Virus record (IMG/VR): IMGVR_UViG_3300033412_000014 | Span: 1-60,274 of that record | Source of the DNA: a virus | Lineage: Duplodnaviria > Caudoviricetes | Length of the DNA stretch: 60,274 bases | Direction: 5' to 3' (one strand) | Shown here: piece by piece, positions 41,504-60,154 of the stretch | How the letters are laid out: every line of letters starts with the position of its first letter | Numbering within the stretch: position 1 is the first letter of the stretch | Program-made: the position numbers and the translations under genes | The notes under the pieces: model-generated | Told to the model about the DNA's origin: nothing | Databases searched by the model: none | The model's input: only the letters and a program-made list of their open reading frames with translations

Positions 41504-43555
41504 CTACCCGCGACTCGCGAGTCGGGTGTTCGCGATGGCGTTGGATGCCGACGTCTGCGCGATCTCCTCGGCGTTCCCGTCACCGATTCCCGGCACCTGC
41601 TGAACGGGTGGAGTCTGTGCGGATGTCTGCTGTGATTCAGCGCGGCGCTTGGCGCCACAAGGTCCACATGCCACGGTCTTCTTCTCCTTCTTTGTCGGCG
41701 TCATGGTCGCCGCAGATGCGGTAAGACCACCGTTCATTCGCAGTCGAATCGCCTCGAGGTTCTGGCGGTTCCGACGATCTCCTCCAAGCTGCTGACGAAT
41801 GTGAGCCAGTGCGGTACGATTCGCATCGTCGGAAACGACGTCACCTACGTACGCGTGCTCACTGATGTGGATCGGCACCGAGCTGGCGACCACGACCGCG
41901 TTGTCATCTACGCGTACGGCCGCGACGTCGGTCGATCGCGCGAAGCCCGGAACGGGAACCGCGAGAGAGGCGACGAATTCCTTCCAGCCGCGACGATCAC
42001 GATGAGGCGCCCAATCACCCGACAGCTGACACGCCTGGAACCGCTGGAAGTCCGCGGCGGACATCGGCATGATCGTACCCGAGACCCACGGCGCCTTGTG
42101 CGTCCTCGACTCACCGACACGAACGACGGCCGCGATGGAGCACGAGTTGTCGTAGTGGCTCATACGCGCTTCGGGGTCGGTCGACGCGTATGGGTTGAGG
42201 TGACCACAGTTCATCGTGATCACGCCCGTGCGAATCTTCAGCACCTCACCGTCCGGACCCTCGACGAGCGTCGGCCGGTTCATCCAGGCGGTGTAGTCGA
42301 CGTTACCCATCGGAATCGTCACCCGCTTGTTCTGGAACGCACGGTGTGCCACGTTCGACGGACCGACGAGACCCCAGATGTGCCCGTTCGGTTCGATCCA
42401 GACGGCACCGATCGGCGGCAGGTCCTTGGGCTCCTGGAAGTACTCCAGTGGAGGTAGCTCCGGGATCTCGATCGTGAACCCACGACGCTTCGTCGTTGCC
42501 GCCGCGGTGATCACGTGCGTGTCAGGCTCGGGTTCCACGTTGATCACAGCACCGGCCGTAACCACCTCATCCAGCGTCGACAGGTCACCGGTGAGGTTCA
42601 GCGACGCCTCCACGAACGCGGGGAGGTTGACCATCGTCGCTCCTCGAACCCGGCCGTTGTGGAAGATGGTCTTGTCCGGCGTGAGCGGCATCATGCTCGG
42701 ATCCGCCTCGGGATCATCACCCTGACTGAAGACCAGTTCGATGTCACCGGCCTTGACCGAGTCGGCGTCGATCGAAACACCTCGCAGGTACTGACCCTTG
42801 ATCTTCCGCGCGGCCTGCATACCGTATGGGTCACCGAGGTCGATCGTGCCCTTGCCCATGATCCGGTTACCGTCACGCCACACGTGCGTGATGTTGCCGA
42901 CGTTCACGGACTTGTCGGTGGTACCACCGTGGCTGGTCTCATACTGGTACATCAGCGGGATCGGCAGCTCAGGCCAGGTGAGTGAGTTCGGCGCGAACTC
43001 ACGTCCGTCGCCCGTCTCCACACCTTCGACCGCGAGAACTCCGTCCCACCCTATCGAACGTGACGATGGTGTCACGTCACCGGCGCCGACACGCCGAACG
43101 GGTGCGTTACCTGTCCTCACCGCAAAGCTCTCCGTTTCACCGCTGTGACCCTTACCGGGCGGGGCTCCGACCGCCTCCGTGTGGTACTCGTTGCAGAGTC
43201 CCTGTGGATCACGAACGTACTTACCCAGGTGACGGACGCAGCGGTTGAAATCACCGTCGGTTCCCCAACGGATCTTCGCAGCTCCCTCACCATGGGTCCA
43301 GTACTCCCGCAGACCACGATCACTTCCGTACGCCTCCGCCGAGATCTTGATTACTCCTGGATCATCGTACAACGTCTCGGTGGTGTTGTCGGTGATCGCA
43401 CTGGCCGTCAGCACCGACCCAGGCGTGTTAAGTATGACGTTGAGTTCGTCGTCGGTGAACCCGTCCGTGTCGGTCGATTCATCGTCATCGACGACGTGGA
43501 ACTGTGGGTCGTTGGCCGGGTCGGTCAACGGCGTAAGTTCGGTCTTGTCAGCCAT
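41504..43555 (-). CDS. Capsid maturation protease with extra N-terminal domain
   Basis: GVLAVEG..TGDGR, H...VG.I, GVSID.D and GATMV..PAF.EA; N-terminal YWTHGEGAAKIRW..GDF.RC module. Confidence 0.8.
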   Translation of the reverse strand: MADKTELTPLTDPANDPQFHVVDDDESTDTDGFTDDELNVILNTPGSVLTASAITDNTTETLYDDPGVIKISAEAYGSDRGLREYWTHGEGAAKIRWGTDGDFNRCVRHLGKYVRDPQGLCNEYHTEAVGAPPGKGHSGETESFAVRTGNAPVRRVGAGDVTPSSRSIGWDGVLAVEGVETGDGREFAPNSLTWPELPIPLMYQYETSHGGTTDKSVNVGNITHVWRDGNRIMGKGTIDLGDPYGMQAARKIKGQYLRGVSIDADSVKAGDIELVFSQGDDPEADPSMMPLTPDKTIFHNGRVRGATMVNLPAFVEASLNLTGDLSTLDEVVTAGAVINVEPEPDTHVITAAATTKRRGFTIEIPELPPLEYFQEPKDLPPIGAVWIEPNGHIWGLVGPSNVAHRAFQNKRVTIPMGNVDYTAWMNRPTLVEGPDGEVLKIRTGVITMNCGHLNPYASTDPEARMSHYDNSCSIAAVVRVGESRTHKAPWVSGTIMPMSAADFQRFQACQLSGDWAPHRDRRGWKEFVASLAVPVPGFARSTDVAAVRVDDNAVVVASSVPIHISEHAYVGDVVSDDANRTALAHIRQQLGGDRRNRQNLEAIRLRMNGGLTASAATMTPTKKEKKTVACGPCGAKRRAESQQTSAQTPPVQQVPGIGDGNAEEIAQTSASNAIANTRLASRG

Positions 43556-46500
43556 TAGCCGACCACCTCCAGGTGAACTTCTGTCGAGTAACTGCTCGGC
43601 ACTACCTTCTTGATCCGATACTTAAGCCCGGGTGCCAGCAGCAGTTCATTCTCCGACTTGTGCAAGCTGATCTCTTTTACCCACGCGGCCGGCGTTCCCA
43701 CAGGGACGTCGATCGTCAGTTTAAGTTCACCACTGAACGCCGCCGTTCCACCCGCTGACGTGCTGAGGAAACCGTCCTCTTGTACGGTCTTTCCCTCTAG
43801 GTCCTGAAGCAGCTTGATCCGCTCAGATGTGGACAGCTTCTCAGCACCCAATCCAAACGCCGACCAGCCAGAGCCACGGTGCACCCGAACCGCCTTGGTG
43901 ATCGGTCGCATACCGTCGATCGCGTTCTGGTTGGTCTTCTTTATGGACTCCGTGCACGTAGACGGCTTCCGAAGACATCCGTTCATACTGGAGTACGTAC
44001 CACCGGTGTACGTCCGCAACGCCGACGACTGCGAAGCCGTCCACGCGCCGTGCTGCGCGTGCATCTCCTCCTGGATCTTCTTCATCGTCAACGGCGTACG
44101 AATGGGGAAGTCCGTCGACGGCTCGATGTTGACGACCGGAAGCGTCGGTGTACCGGGTGAGTACTTCACACCAGCCTTGGTGAGCGGCTGCAGTGTCGGG
44201 CCGATGCTAAGCGTGTACGACAGCTTAGACTTACCCGCCAGTGTCTTGCCGTACTTCTGCAGCTTGTCGGTGAAGGGTGTCTTCGACGTCTTGGTGCTCG
44301 TCGTTTCATCCATCGCCGCAAGGATCTGAAGAGGCGTGAACTCTGGATGAGCCTTGATCGCCTTTGCGAGTGCGTCCACCATGTCCGACGCGTTGGTGTG
44401 CCACTTCACACCGTCGTCGCTGAAGATCTTCTTGATCGCGGCGGCCTTTGCCGGTGTCATCACCGCGGCGGGCTTAGGCGTGAATCCTGCCTTGATGCCA
44501 CCCGACGGTTCGTCTACCTTGGACCATATGCCAGATCCGGCGGCCATGGCGGCGATGACGTGGTTCTCGTCATCATACGTCTTTGCATGTTGCCACGTAC
44601 CCGTGGAGGTCTTCGTCTGCTTGACGAACTTTCCGTTGTTAAAGATGATACGTGTTAGTGGCGTGCCAGCGATCGACTTGTTGTACATCGCGACGACGTC
44701 GTCGTCCTTGTACACACCCTGCTTGATCGTCTCTTCCAGGGAGAGTCCCGAGGTCGGGTTGGCGGCCTTCGTCGTCAGCAGATCCACGGCGCTGAGCGTG
44801 GGTGCCGGCATCGCGGACGGAGTCGCGGACGGCACATCAACACCGAACTTCGGTTCGTCGCCCTTAACCCACTTCGACGTCTTAGCGGCCGTTAACGAGT
44901 CGACGACCTTCTGTGGATCACTGGTCGTCACCTTAACCTGCCAGACACCGCCGGTGAGTCCCGACTTAGTCCGCTTCACGTACTTCTTGTTCATGTCGTC
45001 CCAGATCCACTGGGACTCACCCGCGGAGTTCTTGAAGCGAGCGATCACCTGGCCGTCGGCGTACTTACCGTGCAAGATCGTCGTGGGGAGATCCAGCGGG
45101 GCGGCCGGTGGCGTAGCACTCGTCGTCGACGGAACGTCAACACCAAGTGACGGTTCCTCACCCTTGTACCACCCACCCGCGTTGAAGACCGGCGCGGTGA
45201 TGTTCGACGCGACGGTCTCAGCACTAGGTGAGGAGTTCTTCGTCTCCCAGACACCGGTCTTCTTAGACTTGACCTGCGAGAGGTACATCTTGCTGTTGGC
45301 GTCCCAAACCCAACGTGCCTCGATGTCATTGTGCTTGTAAAACGCGATGACCTGACCGTCCGCGTACTTACCGTGTATGACGGTGTTGGCGTAGTCGTTG
45401 TCCATCGGTACAAGCTCGGTCATCGTCTTAACGACGATCGGCGCACTCGTCGGTGGTGCCGCCGGAGTCAGTTCACCGAGGTACCAGCCGGAACCCGCGT
45501 CGATACCTTGGAGCTTCTTGTACGCCTCAGCCTTGCCGTACGGTGCACCACTCCATGTGCCGTCGTCCTTCTTAAATTCGATGTGAATCTTGTTGTTCTT
45601 GTAGATGGCTCGCCACTCATCGTTACCTGACGTCGCGATGACCTCGCCGTCCTGGTACTTCCCGTAGATGATCGCGTTGGTGAGCTTCGGCACCTTCTTC
45701 GGTAGCGGCTTCGCAACCGCGGACGGTGTCGTAACGGACTTGATTGGCCCAGGTGGCGTCATCGGCTTGCCGACACCCATCCAGCTGTAGTCCGCCTGCT
45801 GGAACTCATCGAGGCTGGTGTACTTATCTACGGTGAAGAACTTACCGTCCGCACCTTCGACCTGATCGTGAAGAACCCATTCACCGTCCGCGTTCAGCTT
45901 GCCAACGAGACGATGATAGTCACCGGTTACCGGATCCTCGCCACCTGCAATGCCTTCACCTATAGCGAAGATGCCCTTTGACATCTGATCCCACAGCTTG
46001 CTGTGAGGAGCGCCGGTGTCGGAGAACTTATCCGGGTGAACCGGGTCCATCGCCGTCATCGTGGGCGCCTTGGGCGTGGGAACAGCGGACTTCTTGTTGA
46101 CGTCGTACTCTTCCAGGTACGCCGCGTCGAACTCGTCCTTGCTTTCCCACGTCCGATCGAGGTGCCAGTCACCGTCCTCGAACTGGTACTCTGCGAGCTG
46201 CTGACCCGTGTCGTAGTCCTGAACGATGATCTTAAGTGGCATCTCTTTTCCATCGAGTGACGTGCCCTTAAGGATCACATCACCGTCATTGAACATCTTA
46301 CTCGTAACGACAAGGTCCCAGATGTTCTCTTGCAACTCAGCGGCGTAGTCATACTCCTCACCGCTGAAGATGGATCCTTGATCGATTGCGGTCGGAGCGT
46401 TCTTCTTGTCCGCCATGTGCTTCTTGAACGCGTCGGTCGGTGAAAGTGACTCATCGATCGATGGTTCGTCGCCGAACATTGCCTTGTTGTGAAGCGCGGT

Positions 46501-48123
46501 TGCCTCGGCCTCAGACAGCTCACCGTCATCATCGAGGTCGCCTGGTAGGTGTGCGTCGATCGGGTGGAAGCCGATGTCACTGGGCAGGTCGGGCGAAACA
46601 CCTTCCTGCTGGGCGAGCTTGAGAAGGCTCTCACGCCGAGCGACCAGCTTATCGGCGAGCTTCTTGTCCTTGATGATCTCACGGATCTTCTCAGGCGTGA
46701 GATCCTCTACACGCTTGACCGACTCCTTGAGCTCATCGGTCGTCATTCCCTTGAAGATCTTCGCGGCGAAGGGATTCTGTGTCGTGCTGCGCAGACTCGA
46801 CCACTCGCCGACATCGGTGCCGAACGCACCACCCTTCGCTGTACCCTGTGCGCGGTACGCCAGCGCACCACCGACGTCGATCCGATGTGGCTTACCCTGC
46901 GCGTCAAAGACGATGTTGTCGAACCCGGTACCCGCGACGTCCCAGTTGGCGAGAAGTGCGTCGACCGCGAAGCCCTCACGAATCGCGTGAATCTTCGCTG
47001 TGTCATTGCCGTTAACGGCCGACGACAGCGTCGTTTCACCCACGTCGACGAGCCGTGTCGCGGTATGCGTTCCCGAGCTGAGACCCGGCGCACCCTCGCC
47101 GATGATGACCTCAGGTACGTCGATACCAGCGGCACGGTAGAGCAGTGACGCATCGCGCTCGTTCTGCGCGTGCTTCGCGGTCTTCTGCTTCTTCACATAC
47201 CAGCGTGATCCGTCTGGCGCCTCGTAGAACCCGCCCTCATTGGAGCCGGCCTTGCCACCGACCTTCTTCAGCCCAGAGAAGTCACCCGACTGGATCTTCT
47301 TGATGACATCCGATTCGACCGGCCCGGCGGAACCCGGTGACAGGTCGATCTCAGGCGGGTTCGACGGGCCAAGGTCATCGAACGGCAACACGTCGGTGTC
47401 ACCCTTGAGGAAGTCAACGATTCCCTTGGTACCCGGAACCTTGGCGAACTTTCCGTCGGCATCTCGCGGGTGTTCGGACGGCTTGAACTGCTTCTTACCG
47501 GCGGCGACGACCGGATCGTCAGCATCCTGCGCGCCGAGAGGGAAGTCGGTGATCTCACCGGCGAACACGACACGGATCCGGTCGAATGTCACGGGTCCGA
47601 GCTTCTTCATCGCCTGCTTGACGACGCTCATCTCGTCGGAGTACGCGAGCGTGATGTGCGGAACCCAGGGGGTGTGCTGCTCAGGAACCTCGTCATCGAA
47701 GACGTCGACGACGTTGCCGGTGATCGCCTTGTGCAGGGCAACCAGCAGGTCGGAGCCGCGAACACCCAACACCACCGCGGTGTCGAAGTCGTCACTGGAT
47801 GGGTTGAAGATGTTCACCGAGAACGTCTCGGTCGTGATCGCAACATATCGCTCGACGATCTCTTCGACGACGCGTCGCAGTAGGTCACGCCCCTCCTCAC
47901 CCCACAGGTTCGCGTCACCGAGGAACAGAAGTGTGGTGTGCAGCTCAGACGCGGGTTCGGCACCGTCGACGTCCAGCGCGAGGGCGTTCGCGTCCTCAGC
48001 CGTCGGCATCAGTGCGATCATGCCGCCGAGGTTAACCTCACCGGCAGCCGTGAGGGACTCTTCGATGATGTCGACGAAGCCGTCATCGAAGAGTCGTGTG
48101 ACATCCATCTCGTCGGTCTTCAT
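43555..48123 (-). CDS. Polyvalent head-module protein: 2H phosphoesterase + HipA/PI3K-like kinase + repeats + ADP-ribosyltransferase
   Basis: HTTL/HITL 2H motifs; GSNEGG..WYVK, DALLANWD and RIDVGG kinase motifs; YT...Y..MN..LR, HRG, FLSTS and ENELLL ART motifs. Confidence 0.85.
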   Translation of the reverse strand: MKTDEMDVTRLFDDGFVDIIEESLTAAGEVNLGGMIALMPTAEDANALALDVDGAEPASELHTTLLFLGDANLWGEEGRDLLRRVVEEIVERYVAITTETFSVNIFNPSSDDFDTAVVLGVRGSDLLVALHKAITGNVVDVFDDEVPEQHTPWVPHITLAYSDEMSVVKQAMKKLGPVTFDRIRVVFAGEITDFPLGAQDADDPVVAAGKKQFKPSEHPRDADGKFAKVPGTKGIVDFLKGDTDVLPFDDLGPSNPPEIDLSPGSAGPVESDVIKKIQSGDFSGLKKVGGKAGSNEGGFYEAPDGSRWYVKKQKTAKHAQNERDASLLYRAAGIDVPEVIIGEGAPGLSSGTHTATRLVDVGETTLSSAVNGNDTAKIHAIREGFAVDALLANWDVAGTGFDNIVFDAQGKPHRIDVGGALAYRAQGTAKGGAFGTDVGEWSSLRSTTQNPFAAKIFKGMTTDELKESVKRVEDLTPEKIREIIKDKKLADKLVARRESLLKLAQQEGVSPDLPSDIGFHPIDAHLPGDLDDDGELSEAEATALHNKAMFGDEPSIDESLSPTDAFKKHMADKKNAPTAIDQGSIFSGEEYDYAAELQENIWDLVVTSKMFNDGDVILKGTSLDGKEMPLKIIVQDYDTGQQLAEYQFEDGDWHLDRTWESKDEFDAAYLEEYDVNKKSAVPTPKAPTMTAMDPVHPDKFSDTGAPHSKLWDQMSKGIFAIGEGIAGGEDPVTGDYHRLVGKLNADGEWVLHDQVEGADGKFFTVDKYTSLDEFQQADYSWMGVGKPMTPPGPIKSVTTPSAVAKPLPKKVPKLTNAIIYGKYQDGEVIATSGNDEWRAIYKNNKIHIEFKKDDGTWSGAPYGKAEAYKKLQGIDAGSGWYLGELTPAAPPTSAPIVVKTMTELVPMDNDYANTVIHGKYADGQVIAFYKHNDIEARWVWDANSKMYLSQVKSKKTGVWETKNSSPSAETVASNITAPVFNAGGWYKGEEPSLGVDVPSTTSATPPAAPLDLPTTILHGKYADGQVIARFKNSAGESQWIWDDMNKKYVKRTKSGLTGGVWQVKVTTSDPQKVVDSLTAAKTSKWVKGDEPKFGVDVPSATPSAMPAPTLSAVDLLTTKAANPTSGLSLEETIKQGVYKDDDVVAMYNKSIAGTPLTRIIFNNGKFVKQTKTSTGTWQHAKTYDDENHVIAAMAAGSGIWSKVDEPSGGIKAGFTPKPAAVMTPAKAAAIKKIFSDDGVKWHTNASDMVDALAKAIKAHPEFTPLQILAAMDETTSTKTSKTPFTDKLQKYGKTLAGKSKLSYTLSIGPTLQPLTKAGVKYSPGTPTLPVVNIEPSTDFPIRTPLTMKKIQEEMHAQHGAWTASQSSALRTYTGGTYSSMNGCLRKPSTCTESIKKTNQNAIDGMRPITKAVRVHRGSGWSAFGLGAEKLSTSERIKLLQDLEGKTVQEDGFLSTSAGGTAAFSGELKLTIDVPVGTPAAWVKEISLHKSENELLLAPGLKYRIKKVVPSSYSTEVHLEVVG

Positions 48124-49598
48124 CGAACCACCCTCACGTCAAGCTGACGCACGCCGTGTTCATCAACTCCGTGGTCAGCGACGATCTGATAGCGAAGACC
48201 ACGATCGAGTGTTACCTCGTAGATACGCTCCAGTGGCGCCATCGCAGGCGTGCCCCGTGGTGTAAGAATGCGCATCTTGGCCGGCTGCGCCCACGAACCG
48301 ACACCACCGTTCTGGAACTCGGTGGCCAGCCGTTCAACACGTCCCGGCTCGGCGGTCGTGGAGACGAAGCCGTGGTCAACGTACTCGACGCCCGTCATGT
48401 CACCGTTGGCAACATCACCAAACATCGCACCGAGGTCACCAATGCCGCGCTCTGTTATGATGTCATCCTCCACATGTGAAGATGCCATGATCTCATCCAG
48501 TGTCGCGATCGTGGCCCGGGTCTCTGGATCAGCGATCTTGCTGGGATCACCGTCACTCGCACGGAGGCCGTCATTGATCTGCTTCGCGTTGGCGACACGG
48601 ATCCACGCCTGCGCGGCATCGATGTACTTCTGACGCGACTTGTCGTAGTCACGCTGGTTGCGCGCCGCGTACTCGCGACCGGTGCTGAACGGCACCTTGG
48701 CGAACGCACCCTTGCCACTAATGGCGTTCTTGAAGTCGTCGCCTGCCGTCTCGGCGAACCGACCGTGCGTGTCACGGACGTATTCACGGTCGGCTGCGAC
48801 GAGAGGTTCATCGGGCATCTCCAGGTCGAACGCGACGGAGCAGCGACACTGAATGATCTCACCCGGTGGTGCCGTCGGGTCACCCGGTACGAGCAGGTAC
48901 GAGACACCGGTGCCACACTCGGGGCCACCCAGCGTGAACCACTCACGCAGGTCGACGGTCTGACCACCGGCCATCTTGTGTGTGCAGCGGGTTCGCTCGT
49001 CGTTGGTGTCGAGCCACTCCTTGGTGCCGATGAGACCTGAGACGAGGACCTGCTGGAACGACCCGGCGTTGGCCGCCATGTTCGCCTCGGTGCGAGCGAT
49101 CACGTTGGCACGCGGCATACCCGTCTTTCCCGCGGTGTCGATCCGTGTTGCGAGCTGCTGGGTGGTCTCACCCAGCGAGAACCCGACGAGCAGTTCCTCA
49201 CGGATCTTCATCCACACGTGGTCACCGATGCCGACCAGCCGGTTCGTCGCCTTGGCGAGGTACTCGACGGCGAAGTCATCCGAGACCGGGTCCGATGTCA
49301 ACTCATCGAAGGCATCGTCGATACCCTGCCAGATGACGCCCGCGGACTCGAGGTAGATGTCACTTAGCGCGGGGAGCAGCTCGGCCTGAACGTGCCCCTT
49401 CCACATGGATGTGATCACCCCGAGGTCACCGATGTCGACCGGTGCCGCAGGTACGCCCGCCGCGGTGATGACCTTGTTCTGCTTGAACACGGTGATCGCG
49501 TTCTTCGTAAGGAGCGCCACCTTGCGGTCGATGAGGTCCGCGAACGCGTCCTCGCGCTCACGCATCGTGGTCGGGTCCCACCCGAAGATCTTCGTCAC
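48120..49598 (-). CDS. MuF minor head protein fused to a C-terminal ADP-ribosyltransferase-like domain
   Basis: RA.VIARTE, KEW....D.RTR.TH and PGDP....E.IQCRC MuF motifs; IN..LR, ERG, GFVSTT and YEV ART-like motifs. Confidence 0.85.
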   Translation of the reverse strand: MTKIFGWDPTTMREREDAFADLIDRKVALLTKNAITVFKQNKVITAAGVPAAPVDIGDLGVITSMWKGHVQAELLPALSDIYLESAGVIWQGIDDAFDELTSDPVSDDFAVEYLAKATNRLVGIGDHVWMKIREELLVGFSLGETTQQLATRIDTAGKTGMPRANVIARTEANMAANAGSFQQVLVSGLIGTKEWLDTNDERTRCTHKMAGGQTVDLREWFTLGGPECGTGVSYLLVPGDPTAPPGEIIQCRCSVAFDLEMPDEPLVAADREYVRDTHGRFAETAGDDFKNAISGKGAFAKVPFSTGREYAARNQRDYDKSRQKYIDAAQAWIRVANAKQINDGLRASDGDPSKIADPETRATIATLDEIMASSHVEDDIITERGIGDLGAMFGDVANGDMTGVEYVDHGFVSTTAEPGRVERLATEFQNGGVGSWAQPAKMRILTPRGTPAMAPLERIYEVTLDRGLRYQIVADHGVDEHGVRQLDVRVVR

Positions 49599-53415: not shown

Positions 53416-54990
53416 TTAGAACGGACCGGACCGCGATCCCGCGAAGATGTCGTCGGCGCCACCGGCGTAGGGCTGCCACACATCGGTGGGGCTAGTGCCC
53501 GCGAGCAGGTCGGTGGTCATGAGGTCCAGCGGAGGTAGGATCGCCTCGTGGTTCATCTCGGTGAAGGCGAGTAGGAGTGCGTCGGACTTGTCGGGCGACA
53601 TGCCGGTGCGCTTGATGATCTCGTCCTTACGCTCGATCTTTACCTTACCCGCGGAGTCCATGATCTCATAGTGTGACGCGGTGAGCTCGGCGATCGTGTC
53701 GTCGTCCACGCGTGTTAGGTCCCAGCTGCGCAGCCGACACGCCTCACGCCCGATGATCCAGTGCATGTAGGCGCGCATGTTGAGGACCTTCGCCTCGAAC
53801 CCAGGCGGTGGAGACTGCGCGAAGTTGATCGCGGTGACCTCGGCGTCGTGCTGCCAGTCCTTGTCCGATCCAGCGGGATTCGACCGGCTGCTGAGCTCCT
53901 TCAGTCGTCCGCAGATGCCCCAACCGATTCCGGTCGAGTCGACCTTAACGCGGCGGATCCCCTCCTCCCGGAGGATGTTTGCGAGCTTTCCGACCGTTCG
54001 CATCGGGTCACTGTCGATGAACACGTACTCGTCCAGTGCGACACGTCCCTGCCGAACCCGCAGGATCGTACGGTCACCGCCGCCACCGACGTCGATGCCC
54101 GCCTCCTTGTCGAGAGCCGTGTTGAGCGGCAGTTCGTTGGACTTGCAGGCGATCGCCCACGCGTACGGGATCGTCGAGTACGGGTCACCGACGGTCGGGA
54201 ACTCTCCGTCACACTTGGACTGAAAGATCGCGGACTCCGGGCCCCAGTGCTTCTTCCGGTCCTCGTACCACACCTCGTGGATGAGGACGTCGCGGACGTG
54301 CTGTGGAACCTCCTCGCCCGTGTAGTTGGGTGTATCCTTGAACCCGATCTTAATGACGTTCCAGTCACTGGTCGGCTTACACACCGTTCCGAACTCGGTG
54401 AGGACGTCGTCGGGGTTGCCGATCGCGAGGATGCGCGAGTGTTCGTTGGCGGCCAGCGTCGACGCGGCGTCCCACATCGTCCGGACGACACCGCAGGCCT
54501 CGTCGAGTACGACGAGCAGCTTACGTGCGTGAAGGCCCTGGAACGCGTGGGTGTTGTAGTCGCTGGGCTTACGCCCGAACGCGACGAGCTCACGGCCGAT
54601 GTACCACTCCGTCAGGTTCGTTCGTCCTGGGAGTCCCGCGGACGTGTGGAGTCGGTTGATCTCGCGCCAGAGAATCGCCTCGACCTGCGGTGCCGTAGGC
54701 GCCGTCGTTACGACGAAGGCCTCACCCGGGAGATGGCAGTCCAGCCACCAGCAGACGGTCGTTGCGGCGACGAAGGACTTACCCGTCTCGTGACAGCTGT
54801 GGACGGCGGTCTTACGGTGGTCCCGCACCGATCGGATGATCTCCTGCTGCTTGGACCAGAGGTCAAGATGCGCCCGCTCCCTCGTCCACAGCACCGGATC
54901 ACGCTGGTAGCGACGCCCAGGCGGGTCCGCTCGCTGGAGCATCGCCTGCCCGGGCGTTCCGATCGTGGGTACCGTTGCGAGCTTAGCCAC
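53416..54990 (-). CDS. Terminase large subunit
   Basis: WSKQ, SCHETGKS, TAPT..QV, VLDEA, IGNP, GIDVG.GGD and SPDKSDA. Confidence 0.93.
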   Translation of the reverse strand: MAKLATVPTIGTPGQAMLQRADPPGRRYQRDPVLWTRERAHLDLWSKQQEIIRSVRDHRKTAVHSCHETGKSFVAATTVCWWLDCHLPGEAFVVTTAPTAPQVEAILWREINRLHTSAGLPGRTNLTEWYIGRELVAFGRKPSDYNTHAFQGLHARKLLVVLDEACGVVRTMWDAASTLAANEHSRILAIGNPDDVLTEFGTVCKPTSDWNVIKIGFKDTPNYTGEEVPQHVRDVLIHEVWYEDRKKHWGPESAIFQSKCDGEFPTVGDPYSTIPYAWAIACKSNELPLNTALDKEAGIDVGGGGDRTILRVRQGRVALDEYVFIDSDPMRTVGKLANILREEGIRRVKVDSTGIGWGICGRLKELSSRSNPAGSDKDWQHDAEVTAINFAQSPPPGFEAKVLNMRAYMHWIIGREACRLRSWDLTRVDDDTIAELTASHYEIMDSAGKVKIERKDEIIKRTGMSPDKSDALLLAFTEMNHEAILPPLDLMTTDLLAGTSPTDVWQPYAGGADDIFAGSRSGPF

Positions 54991-56043: not shown

Positions 56044-56153
56044 TGGGCAGGCGAGGACTCGAACCTCGCGCTCCTCCCTCACCCGGTGCCCCAGGTGTCG
56101 ATCGCCGGCGCCGACGATCGAACGGGTGCTCTGTTCCGTTGAGCTATCTGCCC
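56044..56153 (-). ncRNA. tRNA-like RNA with the anticodon arm replaced by a ~40-nt structured insertion
   Basis: GGGCAG/CTGCCC acceptor, TA-GCTC..GAGC D-arm and CGAGG-TTCGAGT-CCTCG T-arm. Confidence 0.7.
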
Positions 56154-56778: not shown

Positions 56779-56855
56779 TGGTAGCGGGAGATGGATTTGA
56801 ACCACCGACCGTCGGGTTATGAGCCCGATGCGCTGCCGAGCTGCGCCATCCCGCT
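56779..56855 (-). tRNA. tRNA-Met(CAT), initiator-like, with encoded CCA
   Basis: AGCGGGA/TCCCGCT, TCGGG-CTCATAA-CCCGA (three G-C pairs), TTCAAAT T-loop and ACCA. Confidence 0.92.
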
Positions 56856-56951
56856 TCGGCGCAAGGTGAGCCGTACGTCTCCCTCACGCCTATCCGGTTC
56901 TTCCCTCCACGCATCTTGCCGTACGACTCATCGCTTCAGTTCTCCGGCTCG

Positions 56952-57024
56952 TCCCCATCCCAGGTATCGGGCCTGGCTTCGTCCCCAGAACGAGGGGCCG
57001 CATGCACCTGCATGCTCGATAGGG
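56952..57024 (-). ncRNA. Degenerate tRNA-like cloverleaf (loop TCGTTCT, T-loop CCCGATA)
   Basis: CCCTATC/GATGGGG, GCAT/ATGC, CCCC/GGGG and CCAGG/CCTGG stems at canonical spacing. Confidence 0.55.
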
Positions 57025-57158
57025 TAGGCCCGGGAGGTCCTCCAGCTTCACGGGACATTGACTTTTCAGGCCGCTCTCCTCCACTGGACCGCGTGCACAC
57101 GGTCCCTCCCTTGAACGATCCATGGCCACCCTTGCGGATGCAACCACTTCACGAACCG

Positions 57159-57287
57159 AGGGGCACCGTGGGATCGAACCACGCCGATGAACATCAGTCT
57201 CTACTCGCCGTGCGGGTCGCCGGATCCGAAGAACCTACCGCTGCTTTCGAGGACGTATAGTCACCCATCACCTTGAAGGTGCGCCCC
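57159..57287 (-). ncRNA. tRNA-like RNA with long central insertion and variable arm
   Basis: GGGGCGC/GTGCCCC acceptor, CGTGG-TTCGATC-CCACG T-arm, CTGATG/CATCGG arm and a cUUCGg hairpin in the insert. Confidence 0.6.
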
Positions 57288-57378
57288 GCACTCGGCCATC
57301 CGATGACCATTCCCGTGGAACCGAACGGCCGAGCAGGTCTATTCTACCACACGCGGGGTCTCGGCGCGTGGCTCCGTG

Positions 57379-58365: not shown

Positions 58366-59432
58366 CTCGTGGATCGCGAGGACGGCGGCGACGTCGTCGG
58401 GACGAATGTACTTGAGCTTCACCTTCTCGTCCTCGTTGAACTCCCACTTCAGCTCGTACAGATCACCCGTGACGAGGTTTCGCCCGGTCGAGAACTCCGT
58501 CACGTCGACGTCGATGATCGCGCCGGAGCGTAGGATCACACGCATCTTCACAGCGAATCACTCCAGTGCTGCACGGCGTCGATGATGCCTGGAAGTGCCG
58601 TGAACACCAGTATGATCAGGGCCATGAGCACCACCCAGACGAGGCAGCCTAGACCTTCTTTGATGTCTTCCCAGTCCACTAGTCTCTCCGATCCAGAACG
58701 GCGAGAATCGCCTTTGCGACACACTTACGGGAACACGCGAACCAGTCGCCACCCAGGCCGCCTGCGGTATCCGTGGTCTCCATCACGTCACCAATGAGAC
58801 CCATGACCTCGGATTCATCCAGCTCGACATACACGACCTTACCGCAGGCGTCGCAGGTGTAGCGGAGCACCTCGATCAACTGCTTCACCGGACGACCTCC
58901 CCCTTGCCGGTGAACCGGACCGGGTACGGTCCGTCCACCACCTCGCCCTGGTCGACGGCGTGCTTGAAGTGCAGCCACTCCTCGTCCTGCCGCTCAGCGA
59001 TGATGCTGTAGGCGAGGAGACCGACGATGTCCTGCGCCGCGTCAAGCACCTGCTTGATGAAGAGGTCGAACGTATCGGTGGATACGTTCTTCAGTTCAGG
59101 AACGGTGGTGTGATCGACGTTCTCGATCCACGTCCGGACCGCACGGACGGCGTACTCCTGCGGTGTCACAGCGCCTCCAGAAGGTTGAGCGCGGCACCCG
59201 CTTGAACCGGTGACTCCGTCTTGAGCATGACGTACTCGCCGGTTGTCTCGTTGAAGACGCGTAGTCGTGTGTTGGGTGGCCCATAGTTGCCGTCGTCCCA
59301 CTTACCTGTGTCCATCTTGAACACTCCGTTCGGCGTCGTCCAGCGAGCCTCGAAGTGGTCACCACCCTTGACCTCGACGAACACGTGCTCCGGGAGGAGC
59401 TTGAGCAGGGCATCACGCTGTTGCTTGTTCAT
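58363..59432 (-). CDS. Five coupled small hypothetical genes (59166-59432, 58885-59169, 58679-58888, 58548-58679 with TM helix, 58363-58551)
   Basis: Overlapping stop/start codons throughout. Confidence 0.6.
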
Positions 59433-59462
59433 ACATCCTGTCCTCTCATCATTCTTATCGAG

Positions 59463-59585
59463 TCGGTCACCGAGGAGTCGAACCTCGTCCGTCCTGGTCA
59501 CCCCAGGCATGCTAACCCCCGGACGTTTGCATCAGAGCACTCACCCCGCGCGAGGCGGCTGCTGGACGTCCTACACCAGAGACCG
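59463..59585 (-). ncRNA. tRNA-like RNA with a ~50-nt hairpin inserted in the D-loop and a 5-nt anticodon loop
   Basis: CGGTCTC/GTGACCG, TG-GTGT-A...GGTTA-GCAT, CCTGG-GGTGA-CCAGG and CGAGG-TTCGACT-CCTCG. Confidence 0.7.
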
Positions 59586-59769
59586 TTTGGTGGAGCGCTG
59601 GCCGTACTGCTTTGACGATGACTGGCTTCAGCACCCGCGCCCCGGGGCTCATCGTCTCACGCCGGTGTCGGAGGGTAGGATCCTCACGGCTGTGGCCTCG
59701 TCCTCTACGTGTTGCGTCGCCGAACGTGTCAGTAACTGGTATGTCCTACCTGAGGCCTGCGTGTCTATT

Positions 59770-59910
59770 TTACCAGGCGTACGACGGCGAACCGTCGTCA
59801 CCGGGACACTTGAACCGCGCGACGTCGCCCATGCGGGTGATCGTCCAGCGGTGTGGACCGTGCTGACCTGCGTGGTAGCAGCGCTTCCGCTGTGCGAACC
59901 ACCATCTCAT
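59770..59910 (-). CDS. Small Cys/His-containing hypothetical protein
   Basis: C.H.G.HGPH.W...CPG. Confidence 0.45.
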   Translation of the reverse strand: MRWWFAQRKRCYHAGQHGPHRWTITRMGDVARFKCPGDDGSPSYAW

Positions 59911-59911
59911 C

Positions 59912-60154
59912 TTAGTCCTCCAACTCGTCGTTGATGAACGTCTTGACGACGCGAACGATCTCTTTACCCACGTACGTAAGGACCTCACCACGCCCCTTAC
60001 AGGTCGGACAGTCCTCGTCTGTGATGACGGCGGTGTTGCCGTTGAAGTCCATGATCTTCCCGCCGCGACACTCCTTCATGGTCTTGTAGTTGATCCGCGA
60101 ATCCGGGCAGATCTTGGTGATGTCAATCTGGAAGTCACCGATGTAGATGCTCAT
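59912..60154 (-). CDS. Hypothetical protein with DnaJ-like CxxCxGxG zinc motif
   Basis: CPTCKGRGEVLT..GKEI. Confidence 0.6.
   Translation of the reverse strand: MSIYIGDFQIDITKICPDSRINYKTMKECRGGKIMDFNGNTAVITDEDCPTCKGRGEVLTYVGKEIVRVVKTFINDELED

What the first reader, a model, noticed from the sequence alone, without database searches (positions are those of the whole stretch)
59463..59585. tRNA-derived RNA with a ~50-nt hairpin inserted in the D-loop and no usable anticodon loop
Seen: canonical TGGTGTA...GGTTAGCATG D-arm flanks split by a GGACGT...ACGTCC hairpin, an intact T-arm and acceptor stem, and a 5-nt anticodon loop lacking U33. The insert is too short for a group I intron. Inference: a tRNA mimic (decoy for tRNA-targeting defences or elbow-binding proteins) or a tRNA scaffold carrying a cargo domain. 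Standard tRNA finders would likely miss it.
Basis: partly seen in the sequence, partly recalled or inferred. Interest (0 to 1): 0.78.

Follow-up and report, generated by a model that had tools for sequence, protein, structure and literature searches.

The report
Non-decoding tRNA-shaped module in phage leader RNA
A phage carries a tRNA-shaped RNA that cannot read codons, has an extra hairpin in its D-loop, and sits directly behind a conserved structured RNA ending in CCA, so it most likely marks a cutting site for tRNA-processing enzymes rather than acting as a tRNA.

Summary
The element has a 7-bp acceptor stem, a 4-bp D-stem, a canonical T-arm and a 5-bp stem with a 5-nt loop where the anticodon arm should be. 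A 51-nt hairpin sits in the D-loop. ARAGORN and Rfam miss it. With the hairpin removed in silico, ARAGORN calls a tRNA at default settings.

The element is not free-standing. It is the last module of a ~300-nt leader behind a conserved extended -10 promoter. It starts 2-3 A after a ~110-nt domain ("module 1") that ends in GCGCUCC-ACCA.

I found five sequence variants of this leader, in a small clade of soil actinophage-like viruses. In three of them the same slot holds an unrelated, insert-free minimal tRNA-like module. That module keeps its stems through compensatory changes and has a 5- or 8-nt loop. What is conserved is therefore "any tRNA shape, no anticodon, right after CCA".

My best reading (about 45%) is an RNase P/Z processing signal, like mascRNA, that releases module 1 with a CCA end. 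A decoy, a cargo scaffold or a decaying tRNA remain possible. No expression data were available. I rate it a new variant of a known kind, of moderate interest.

The parts
59763..59775 (-). Extended -10 promoter-like motif TGGTAAAAT followed by AGAC; the presumed transcription start lies a few nt downstream.
   Evidence: TGnTAnnnT followed by AGAC/AAGC is kept in 6 of 6 sequences although the upstream gene differs. The exact motif TGNTANRNTAGAC occurs only twice in the window, here and at 57337-57349. The generic sigma-70 scan does not call it.
59697..59762 (-). Variable 5' part of the leader, about 55-70 nt and largely unalignable between variants.
   Evidence: It shows no significant complementarity to the 3' tail.
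59586..59696 (-). Module 1: a conserved ~110-nt structured domain ending in GCGCUCC-ACCA-AA.
   Evidence: It is 88-92% identical to relatives. The terminase gene is 82-86% identical, and terminase third codon positions 63-69%. The RNAalifold consensus is a three-way junction. There is no Rfam family at E<=10. It is not coding, because a 1-nt deletion in L005 breaks the only ORF.
59649..59656 (-). 5' strand of helix P, GACGAUGA. Its partner is UCAUCGUC at 59614-59621.
   Evidence: The 8-bp Watson-Crick helix appears in the consensus fold. It is invariant in 5 of 5 variants, so there is no covariation. A helix of 8 bp or more arises in 9% of shuffles.
59637..59643 (-). GGGGCGC, the candidate 5' strand of an acceptor-like helix. 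It lies inside the loop of helix P.
   Evidence: It pairs with GCGCUCC (59592-59598) as G-C, G-C, G.U, G-C, C-G, G-C, C-G. In L005 one G here and the U opposite are both missing, giving GGGCGC/GCGCCC. A 7-nt complement arises in 7% of shuffles.
59588..59598 (-). GCGCUCC plus ACCA, the 3' strand of the acceptor-like helix with an encoded discriminator A and CCA. Two A (59586-59587) follow.
   Evidence: CCACCAA is present in 5 of 5 variants and is directly followed by the first base of module 2.
59463..59585 (-).
   Evidence: It differs from the L006 copy at only 3 places over 123 nt.
59521..59571 (-). 51-nt hairpin inserted in the D-loop after A14.
   Evidence: It is single-copy in the window. 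Its similarity to the module 1 hairpin is not above shuffles.
59493..59507 (-). Anticodon-arm substitute: a 5-bp stem with the 5-nt loop GGUGA.
   Evidence: The loop is GGAA (4 nt) in L006, 5 nt in L005 and 8 nt in L004, counting both module types.
59464..59487 (-). T-arm CGAGG-UUCGACU-CCUCG followed by the acceptor 3' strand GUGACCG.
   Evidence: The same T-arm, at 94% over 17 nt, occurs in the other long tRNA-like at 56052-56068.
59166..59432 (-). First downstream gene (88 aa, no family), preceded by a GAGAGGA ribosome-binding site 31 nt after module 2.
   Evidence: No terminator-like site is called anywhere above 55903, so none lies between module 2 and the gene.

Best explanation
The 123-nt element is a real, selected, tRNA-shaped RNA that cannot decode. 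It is the last module of a ~300-nt leader RNA transcribed from a host-type extended -10 promoter at the head of a block of small early-looking genes.

Inferred mechanism:
- The module folds into a tRNA-like L-shape, with an acceptor/T-arm stack and a D-loop GG meeting the T-loop at the elbow.
- Host RNase P recognises this shape and cuts at its 5' end, between A59586 and C59585.
- RNase Z or another 3' nuclease probably cuts after A59463.
- This frees the conserved upstream domain (module 1) with a ...GCGCUCC-ACCA(A) 3' end and separates it from the downstream mRNA.

This is how the mascRNA element defines the 3' end of MALAT1, and how tRNAs punctuate mixed tRNA-mRNA operons. The 51-nt D-loop hairpin is a lineage-specific addition. 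It may carry a function of its own, but the slot does not require it.

Shown: the structure, its conservation, the junction and the interchangeability of the module.
Inferred: transcription, cleavage and what module 1 does.
For: 1. The tRNA shape is real.

2. It is part of a larger unit.
- Conservation starts at the -10 motif and runs through module 1 and module 2 to the ribosome-binding site.
- The gene upstream and the gene downstream differ between relatives.

3. The junction is fixed. In 5 of 5 variants the tRNA-like module starts 2-3 A after CCACC-A.

4. The module is interchangeable.
- The window (identical to L017) and L006 carry type A.
- L004, L005 and L018 carry an unalignable type B of 68-72 nt without insert.
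- The flanks on both sides stay homologous.
- L018 combines a window-like module 1 with an L004-like type B, which shows recombination exactly at the junction.

5. Type B is under selection for the fold.
- Between L004 and L005, 3 of 16 pairs changed on both sides.
- 93.5% of cells are paired, against 55% or less when the partners are slid.
- A fourth compensatory pair, G-C to C-G, can be read from the sequences of the anticodon-like stem in a shifted register.

6. All versions lack a 7-nt anticodon loop (4, 5, 5 and 8 nt). All keep the 7+5-bp acceptor/T stack, a U...A T-loop and a D-region GG.

7. There is nucleotide-level constraint.
- Module 1 is 88-92% identical to relatives and type A about 98%.
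- Terminase third codon positions are 63-69% identical.
- The coding tail just upstream shows synonymous changes.

8. A second copy of the same promoter motif (57337-57349) is also followed by a leader with a long tRNA-like RNA.

9. Known precedents, from passages read (PMC4919922, section 5.4):
- RNase P processes tRNA-like structures at the 3' ends of MALAT1 and MEN-beta.
- It also processes t-elements, polycistronic mRNAs and phage regulatory RNAs.
Against: - There is no expression or end-mapping evidence of any kind.
- The generic promoter scan does not call the promoter.
- Only five variants exist, and two of them share type A almost unchanged. Type A itself therefore shows only one pair-preserving change.
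- Its near-identity between the window and L006 could reflect recent transfer rather than constraint.
- A 51-nt hairpin next to the elbow could hinder RNase P, which reads the elbow.
- The acceptor stem has a U.U mismatch and an unusual C1-G72.
- A pure processing signal does not explain why the type A D-loop and T-loop stay so canonical.
- It also does not explain why other tRNA-like RNAs of these phages carry extra hairpins of about 40-50 nt. That pattern fits a cargo or scaffold idea.
- The function of module 1, which the model serves, is unknown.
Confidence: 0.45

Rival explanations
1. Stand-alone tRNA mimic or decoy. Once released, the tRNA-shaped RNA titrates a host factor that recognises tRNA shape. 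Candidates are a tRNA-targeting defence nuclease, a toxin acting on acceptor or CCA ends, or a modification or elbow-binding protein.
For: - The fold is kept although decoding is lost.
- The type A D-loop and T-loop elbow residues are canonical.
- The phage carries at least two further long tRNA-like RNAs.
Against: - No defence or anti-defence gene is linked. 48 ORFs searched in Pfam and 10 neighbours in PHROGs gave nothing relevant.
- Anticodon-loop nucleases could not be decoyed by a 4-8-nt loop.
- Types A and B share no sequence beyond the shape, so any partner must read shape only.
- The strict abutment to CCACCAA is not explained.
Confidence: 0.2
2. tRNA scaffold carrying a cargo. The 51-nt hairpin is the functional part, for example a protein- or RNA-binding domain. 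The tRNA body provides processing, stability and defined ends.
For: - The insert sits in the part of the D-loop that tolerates extra nucleotides.
- It is conserved with 1 change in 51 nt between the window and L006.
- Other tRNA-like RNAs in this clade carry extra hairpins of about 37-50 nt in place of the anticodon loop: window 56044-56153 and L006 6655-6771.
Against: - Three of five variants have no insert in this slot.
- The insert is single-copy, and no partner or repeat was found.
- With only two near-identical copies there is no covariation evidence for its internal fold.
Confidence: 0.15
3. Decaying tRNA gene. It would be a former phage tRNA that lost its anticodon loop and picked up an insertion, persisting without function.
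For: - ARAGORN reads the insert-free core as tRNA-like.
- The acceptor has a mismatch and the D-stem has two G.U pairs.
Against: - Type B shows compensatory changes.
- Type A is about 98% identical between genomes whose third codon positions are about 63% identical.
- The slot is always filled and always abuts CCACCAA.
Confidence: 0.1
4. A true tRNA whose D-loop insert is removed as an intron.
For: Removing the insert restores a 72-nt cloverleaf that ARAGORN accepts.
Against: - After removal the anticodon loop is still 5 nt, or 4 nt in L006, and lacks U33.
- 51 nt is far below group I intron size.
- No splicing endonuclease or ligase family appeared among the 48 ORFs scanned.
- Type B has no insert and is equally non-decoding.
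Confidence: 0.03

Closest known systems
mascRNA/menRNA tRNA-like elements at the 3' ends of MALAT1 and MEN-beta
   Same: A tRNA-shaped module without a working anticodon loop lies directly 3' of a structured noncoding RNA. In the known case, cleavage by RNase P and RNase Z makes the upstream RNA's 3' end and releases a small tRNA-like RNA (PMC4919922 section 5.4, passages).
   Different: - The known case is eukaryotic and nuclear; this one is in a bacteriophage leader upstream of protein genes.
- Here the upstream RNA ends in an encoded ACCA.
- Type A has a 51-nt D-loop hairpin.
- The Rfam mascRNA model gives no hit at this locus.
tRNAs and tRNA-like t-elements as punctuation in mixed tRNA-mRNA transcripts (bacterial operons, plant mitochondria)
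   Same: A tRNA shape embedded in a longer transcript serves as an RNase P site (passages).
   Different: Those are mostly functional tRNAs or short t-elements. Here the module is non-decoding, is exchanged between unrelated types, and is tied to an upstream CCA end.
Phage T2/T4 gene 32 mRNA leader pseudoknot followed by ACCA, and plant-virus tRNA-like structures (TYMV type)
   Same: Module 1 can form a helix between a hairpin-loop segment and a 3' strand that is followed by ACCA. That gives a pseudoknotted acceptor-like end in a viral leader. Such pseudoknot-plus-RCCA RNAs are RNase P substrates (PMC12710915, introduction and concluding remarks, passages).
   Different: - The pseudoknot here is only inferred, from one paired deletion.
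- The linkers are long, at 5, 15 and 15 nt.
- The element is not at a genome 3' end.
- No T-arm equivalent was identified.
tmRNA tRNA-like domain
   Same: The module 1 acceptor-like helix has G1-C72, G2-C71, G3.U70 and A73-CCA in 4 of 5 variants, and it has no anticodon. That G3.U70 is the alanine identity element is recalled knowledge.
   Different: ARAGORN and Rfam find no tmRNA. There is no T-arm in module 1 and no conserved tag reading frame. L005 lacks the G.U.
YrlA (bacterial Y RNA-like) tRNA-like domain
   Same: It is a non-decoding tRNA mimic, also reported from phages (PMC4201824, listing and abstract only).
   Different: In YrlA the tRNA-like part is closed at the acceptor end and joined to a Ro-binding stem (recalled). 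Here the acceptor ends are open. There is no Rfam hit and no TROVE/Rsr protein among the 48 ORFs.
P1/P7 C4 antisense RNA
   Same: It is a phage regulatory RNA cut out of an operon leader by RNase P (reference 206 of PMC4919922; the original paper was not held).
   Different: I found no significant complementarity between this leader and its downstream ribosome-binding region.

Membership tests
Canonical tRNA (Rfam RF00005 / ARAGORN) | 7-bp acceptor stem stacked on a 5-bp T-stem with a UUCRANY T-loop | tested here: met
   CGGUCUC/GUGACCG pairs at 6 of 7 positions, and the T-arm is CGAGG-UUCGACU-CCUCG.
Canonical tRNA (Rfam RF00005 / ARAGORN) | D-arm of normal size (4-bp stem, 7-11-nt loop) | tested here: not met
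   The stem and the loop residues A14, GG and A21 are present, but a 51-nt hairpin interrupts the loop.
Canonical tRNA (Rfam RF00005 / ARAGORN) | 7-nt anticodon loop with U33 | tested here: not met
   The loop is GGUGA (5 nt) in the window and GGAA (4 nt) in L006.
Canonical tRNA (Rfam RF00005 / ARAGORN) | Score at or above the family threshold | tested here: not met
   Rfam gives no hit at gathering score or at E<=10. ARAGORN gives none on the native sequence. It calls a tRNA only after in-silico removal of the insert.
tRNA-like RNase P/Z processing element (mascRNA type) | tRNA-like fold without a functional anticodon loop | tested here: met
tRNA-like RNase P/Z processing element (mascRNA type) | Placed directly 3' of the RNA whose end it defines | tested here: met
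   It starts 2-3 nt after the conserved ...ACCA in 5 of 5 variants.
tRNA-like RNase P/Z processing element (mascRNA type) | Cleavage by RNase P at its 5' end and by RNase Z at its 3' end | not testable with these tools
   No RNA run was listed.
tRNA-like RNase P/Z processing element (mascRNA type) | Sequence or structure homology to RF01684 | tested here: not met
   No hit at the locus at E<=10.
tmRNA | tRNA-like domain plus tag reading frame and pseudoknots, detected by ARAGORN or the Rfam tmRNA models | tested here: not met
   No reading frame is conserved in module 1.
tmRNA | G3.U70 acceptor with an ACCA end | tested here: inconclusive
   It is present in the inferred module 1 helix in 4 of 5 variants and absent in L005. 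The helix itself is supported only by one paired deletion.
Viral tRNA-like structure with pseudoknotted acceptor (TYMV type) | Acceptor helix formed by a pseudoknot and ending in CCA | tested here: inconclusive
   The complementarity is present, with a paired indel in L005. A 7-nt complement arises in 7% of shuffles. The nested consensus fold leaves the tail single-stranded.
Viral tRNA-like structure with pseudoknotted acceptor (TYMV type) | Aminoacylation | not testable with these tools
   -
YrlA / Y RNA-like | Rfam model match and a linked Rsr (TROVE) gene | tested here: not met
   No Rfam hit and no TROVE domain among the 48 ORFs.
tRNA intron (group I or bulge-helix-bulge) | Intron of group I size and core, or a BHB motif with a splicing endonuclease | tested here: not met
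   The insert is a 51-nt simple hairpin. No intron family matches in Rfam and no endonuclease domain was found.

The most novel reading that the evidence does not exclude
The tRNA-like module is the maturation handle for module 1. Module 1 would be a phage-encoded, pseudoknot-built acceptor mimic with a tRNA-Ala/tmRNA-type end (G1-C72, G2-C71, G3.U70, A73-CCA). RNase P cutting at the downstream tRNA-like would expose its CCA end, and cutting before its own G1 may also occur. The released RNA would be charged, or bound by CCA- or acceptor-reading host factors, early in infection. That would make it a tRNA-like structure of the plant-virus kind in a DNA phage.
Probability: 0.12. Interest if true: 0.85.

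Novelty: new variant of a known kind. Interest (0 to 1): 0.55.

Why it matters
Phage tRNA genes are usually read as codon-usage helpers or as spare parts against tRNA-cleaving defences. Here a phage clade keeps tRNA shapes that cannot decode, swaps unrelated versions into one fixed slot, and couples that slot to a conserved structured RNA with a CCA end.

If the processing model holds, it is a bacterial-virus counterpart of the MALAT1/mascRNA arrangement. It would also be a natural example of tRNA-guided maturation of a leader RNA.

It further shows that standard tRNA finders miss a class of tRNA-derived phage RNAs. The window holds three of them.

Tried and rejected
Expression and earlier notes
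- RNA-seq support: no RNA holder was listed for 59440-59790.

Search for more homologues
- 'Phages' collection with blastn on 59400-59950: no match.
- The neighbour protein 59166-59432 in viral contigs: none.
- Exact or gapped patterns in viral contigs returned only the same four contigs.
- The metagenome pattern scan returned six contigs. They gave one new leader variant (L018) and one with a new promoter region (L017). The other four repeated known sequence.
- The single genome-contig hit, L019 in Geodermatophilus, is a chance match.
- The 15-mer from the D-arm gave 22 stretches, of which 21 are chance.
- A covariance model of module 1 (R1) found nothing credible in the 15 more distant terminase-related loci searched with it (L007, L009, L041-L049, L054, L062, L067, L094), out of about 80 fetched.
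- It also found nothing in 5 whole related records. The 13-bit L043 hit lies in what looks like coding sequence.

Ideas tested and dropped
- Insert as a duplicate of the module 1 hairpin: alignment score 18 against a shuffle mean of 19.
- Pairing of the variable 5' region with the CCA tail: not above shuffles in any of 5 variants.
- Antisense pairing of the leader with the downstream ribosome-binding region: not above shuffles (one search timed out).
- Tail acting as a guide for RNase P on a phage target: 18 near-matches against 15.65 expected, and the only exact one is its own complement.
- Insert as a repeated mini-element: it is single-copy.
- Small ORF in module 1: broken by the L005 indel.
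- Hammerhead or C/D-box kink-turn reading of the GAUGAG...GAA words: the only database trace is a 9.6-bit sR32 hit at E=7, and the hammerhead core is incomplete.
- Origin of the tRNA body by BLAST against one actinobacterial genome: only short partial matches.
- Neighbour gene functions: no informative Pfam or PHROGs hits.
- Literature: searches listed no paper on phage tRNA-like RNAs with D-loop insertions or on such leader cassettes. This rests on listings and abstracts only. Supplements were not consulted.

Full report
**Source.** The window is a complete-looking (97%) linear IMG/VR virus record of 60,274 bases at 61% G+C. Its genes are phage-like:
- primase-polymerase, family A DNA polymerase, SNF2 helicase, thymidylate synthase and a C5 methylase
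- a podophage fibre protein
- a MuF-like protein
- a 1522-aa protein with 2H-phosphoesterase and ADP-ribosyltransferase domains

The ORF at 53416-54990 is a large terminase. It is about 35% identical to terminases of Streptomyces and Arthrobacter phages. The host is therefore probably an actinobacterium, but this is an inference.

**The observation.** The element lies on the minus strand, from 59585 to 59463.

The sequence reads, in order:
- acceptor CGGUCUC, pairing with GUGACCG at six of seven positions, with one U.U
- U8, G9
- D-stem GUGU/GCAU
- A14
- a 51-nt hairpin closed by GGACGU/ACGUCC (59571-59521)
- GGGGGUUA, which completes a normal 9-nt D-loop
- G26
- a 5-bp stem with the loop GGUGA
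- a 5-nt variable loop
- T-arm CGAGG-UUCGACU-CCUCG
- discriminator A

No CCA is encoded.

Detection and chance:
- ARAGORN and Rfam do not report it, natively or at E<=10.
- With the 51 nt removed by script, ARAGORN accepts the 72-nt core at default settings.
- A pattern combining T-arm, acceptor, U8, A14, D-stem, GG and A21 arose in 1 of 100 simulated 60-kb sequences, against four times in the window.
- Thermodynamics alone is uninformative. The z-score is +0.27, and the cloverleaf lies 3 kcal/mol above the MFE.

**Context changes the picture.** A 28-mer from the T-arm found one related virus contig. Terminase-based and pattern-based searches found more. Together they give five distinct versions of the region:
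- the window, identical to L017 over the RNA
- L006, identical to L002, L013 and L014
- L005, identical to L010
- L004, identical to L003, L011, L012, L015 and L016
- L018

Conservation does not start at the tRNA-like element. It starts at an extended -10-like motif (TGnTAnnnT plus AGAC), which is kept in 6 of 6 sequences although the upstream gene differs. The order along the transcript is:
- a variable stretch of about 55-70 nt
- a ~110-nt conserved domain, which I call module 1 (59696-59586)
- the tRNA-like module, which I call module 2
- about 30 nt further on, a ribosome-binding site and a small gene

No terminator-like site is called anywhere above 55903. The unit therefore looks like the leader of an operon of small genes of unknown function.

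The exact promoter motif occurs only twice in the window. The second copy (57337-57349) also precedes a leader with a long tRNA-like RNA.

**Module 1.**
- It is 88-92% identical between relatives. Their terminase genes are 82-86% identical, and terminase third codon positions 63-69%.
- The coding tail just upstream shows synonymous differences.
- It matches no Rfam family.
- It is not coding, because L005 has a frame-breaking deletion.
- RNAalifold proposes a three-way junction. This consists of a short closing helix GGCC/GGCC, an arm whose tip varies and keeps pairing through changes on both sides, and an 8-bp helix GACGAUGA/UCAUCGUC. The tail AGCGCUCCACCAA is left free.
- The tail's GCGCUCC is complementary to GGGGCGC inside the loop of the 8-bp helix. 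That pairing would give G-C, G-C, G.U, G-C, C-G, G-C, C-G followed by ACCA.
- In L005 one G of the first strand and the U of the second are both missing. This is the only covariation-type support.
- Either helix alone could arise by chance in 7-9% of shuffles, and the rest is invariant.
- I therefore treat the pseudoknotted, acceptor-like end as a hypothesis.
- Phage gene 32 leaders with a pseudoknot followed by ACCA, and plant-virus tRNA-like structures, are known RNase P substrates (passages of PMC12710915).

**Module 2 is a slot, not a sequence.**
- In all five versions the tRNA-like module begins 2-3 A after CCACC-A.
The two copies differ at three places: GCAU to GCAC in the D-stem (G.U to G-C), the loop GGUGA to GGAA, and one base in the insert.
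- L004, L005 and L018 carry type B, of 68-72 nt, which cannot be aligned with type A although both flanks remain homologous.
- Type B has a 7-bp acceptor, a reduced D-region with GG, a 4-bp stem with an 8- or 5-nt loop, and a T-arm with the loop UGCGAGA. ARAGORN sees it only at a relaxed threshold.
- Between L004 and L005, three of 16 pairs changed on both sides. 93.5% of cells pair, against 55% or less after sliding.
- A fourth compensatory pair is visible in the anticodon-like stem in a shifted register.
- L018 joins a window-type module 1 to an L004-type module 2, so exchange happens exactly at the junction.
- The constant features are a tRNA shape, no anticodon loop, and a position right after CCA.

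**Mechanism.** The most economical reading is a processing signal:
- RNase P recognises the acceptor/T-arm stack and the elbow.
- It cuts at the 5' end of module 2.
- This leaves module 1 with an (A)CCA(A) end and detaches it from the mRNA.
- A 3' nuclease frees the tRNA-like piece.

This is what the mascRNA element does for MALAT1. RNase P also acts on t-elements, polycistronic mRNAs and phage regulatory RNAs (PMC4919922 section 5.4, passages).

Transcription, cleavage and the role of module 1 are all inferred. No RNA run was listed. I put this reading at about 0.45.

**Rivals.**
- Decoy or mimic (0.2) would explain the canonical elbow of type A. It has no linked evidence and does not explain the junction.
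- Cargo scaffold (0.15) gains from other tRNA-like RNAs in this clade that carry extra hairpins of about 37-50 nt where the anticodon loop should be: window 56044-56153, with an Rfam tRNA score of 32.4 bits, and L006 6655-6771 at 45.9 bits. It loses because type B has no insert and because the insert shows no repeat or partner.
- Decaying tRNA (0.1) conflicts with the compensatory changes and with the constraint.
- Intron-containing true tRNA (0.03) fails because the loop stays 4-5 nt after removal of the insert.

**Limits.**
- The RNA is confined to a small clade. The covariance model of module 1 found nothing in the more distant terminase relatives searched with it, nor in five whole related records.
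- Covariation statistics are therefore weak.
- The near-identity of type A between the window and L006 could reflect recent exchange rather than selection.

**Novelty.**
- Non-decoding tRNA-like processing elements and viral tRNA mimics are known kinds.
- A phage leader that couples a CCA-ending structured domain to an exchangeable tRNA-like module, one version of which has a large D-loop hairpin, was not found in my two literature searches (listings and abstracts only).
- I rate it a new variant of a known kind, with interest 0.55.

Noticed in passing
window 57160-57287 (-), promoter-like motif at 57337-57349 (-): A second copy of the TGGTAGAATAGAC promoter motif is followed by a hairpin leader and a ~128-nt tRNA-like RNA. 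That RNA has acceptor GGGGCGC/GUGCCCC, T-arm CGUGG-UUCGAUC-CCACG and no canonical D-arm. The syntenic element in L006 (6655-6771) is instead a canonical tRNA body with a 49-nt insertion in the anticodon loop (Rfam tRNA, 45.9 bits).
   Followed up: partly
window 56044-56153 (-): A 110-nt tRNA-like RNA with intact acceptor, D-arm and T-arm, and a structured ~37-nt insertion replacing the anticodon loop. It scores 32.4 bits on Rfam tRNA in a local search but was missed in the whole-window gathering run and by ARAGORN. Its T-arm is 94% identical to that of the finding.
   Followed up: partly
window 56856-57159 (-): About 300 nt with no convincing ORF lie between the 128-nt tRNA-like RNA and tRNA-Met(CAU). 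Parts resemble the corresponding stretch of L006 (6780-7210) by eye. This is probably further structured RNA. L006 7032-7114 holds another weak tRNA-like (18.5 bits to tRNA-Sec, below threshold).
   Followed up: no
window 56779-56855 (-): The phage tRNA-Met encodes its CCA and has three consecutive G-C pairs at the base of the anticodon stem, which is initiator-like, but an A1-U72 acceptor end. It and module 1 are the only CCA-encoding RNA ends I saw in this region.
   Followed up: no
window 43555-48123 (-) and 48120-49598 (-): A 1522-aa protein combines an N-terminal 2H phosphoesterase (2'-5' RNA ligase superfamily) domain with a C-terminal ADP-ribosyltransferase domain. The adjacent MuF-like protein also carries an ADP-ribosyltransferase domain. 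Both are probably virion-delivered enzymes.
   Followed up: no
window 59773-59910 (-): A small 46-aa ORF ends inside the -10 motif of the RNA promoter. Its C-terminus, CPGDDGSPSY(A/S)W, is conserved in L006 with mostly synonymous differences. This gives a useful contrast to the near-invariant RNA just downstream.
   Followed up: partly
L018 (metagenome contig, 1676 b), minus strand 1-164: This is a mosaic leader. Its 5' hairpin is unlike all others, its module 1 core is identical to the window, and its module 2 is of the L004 type. It is direct evidence for recombination between leader modules.
   Followed up: partly
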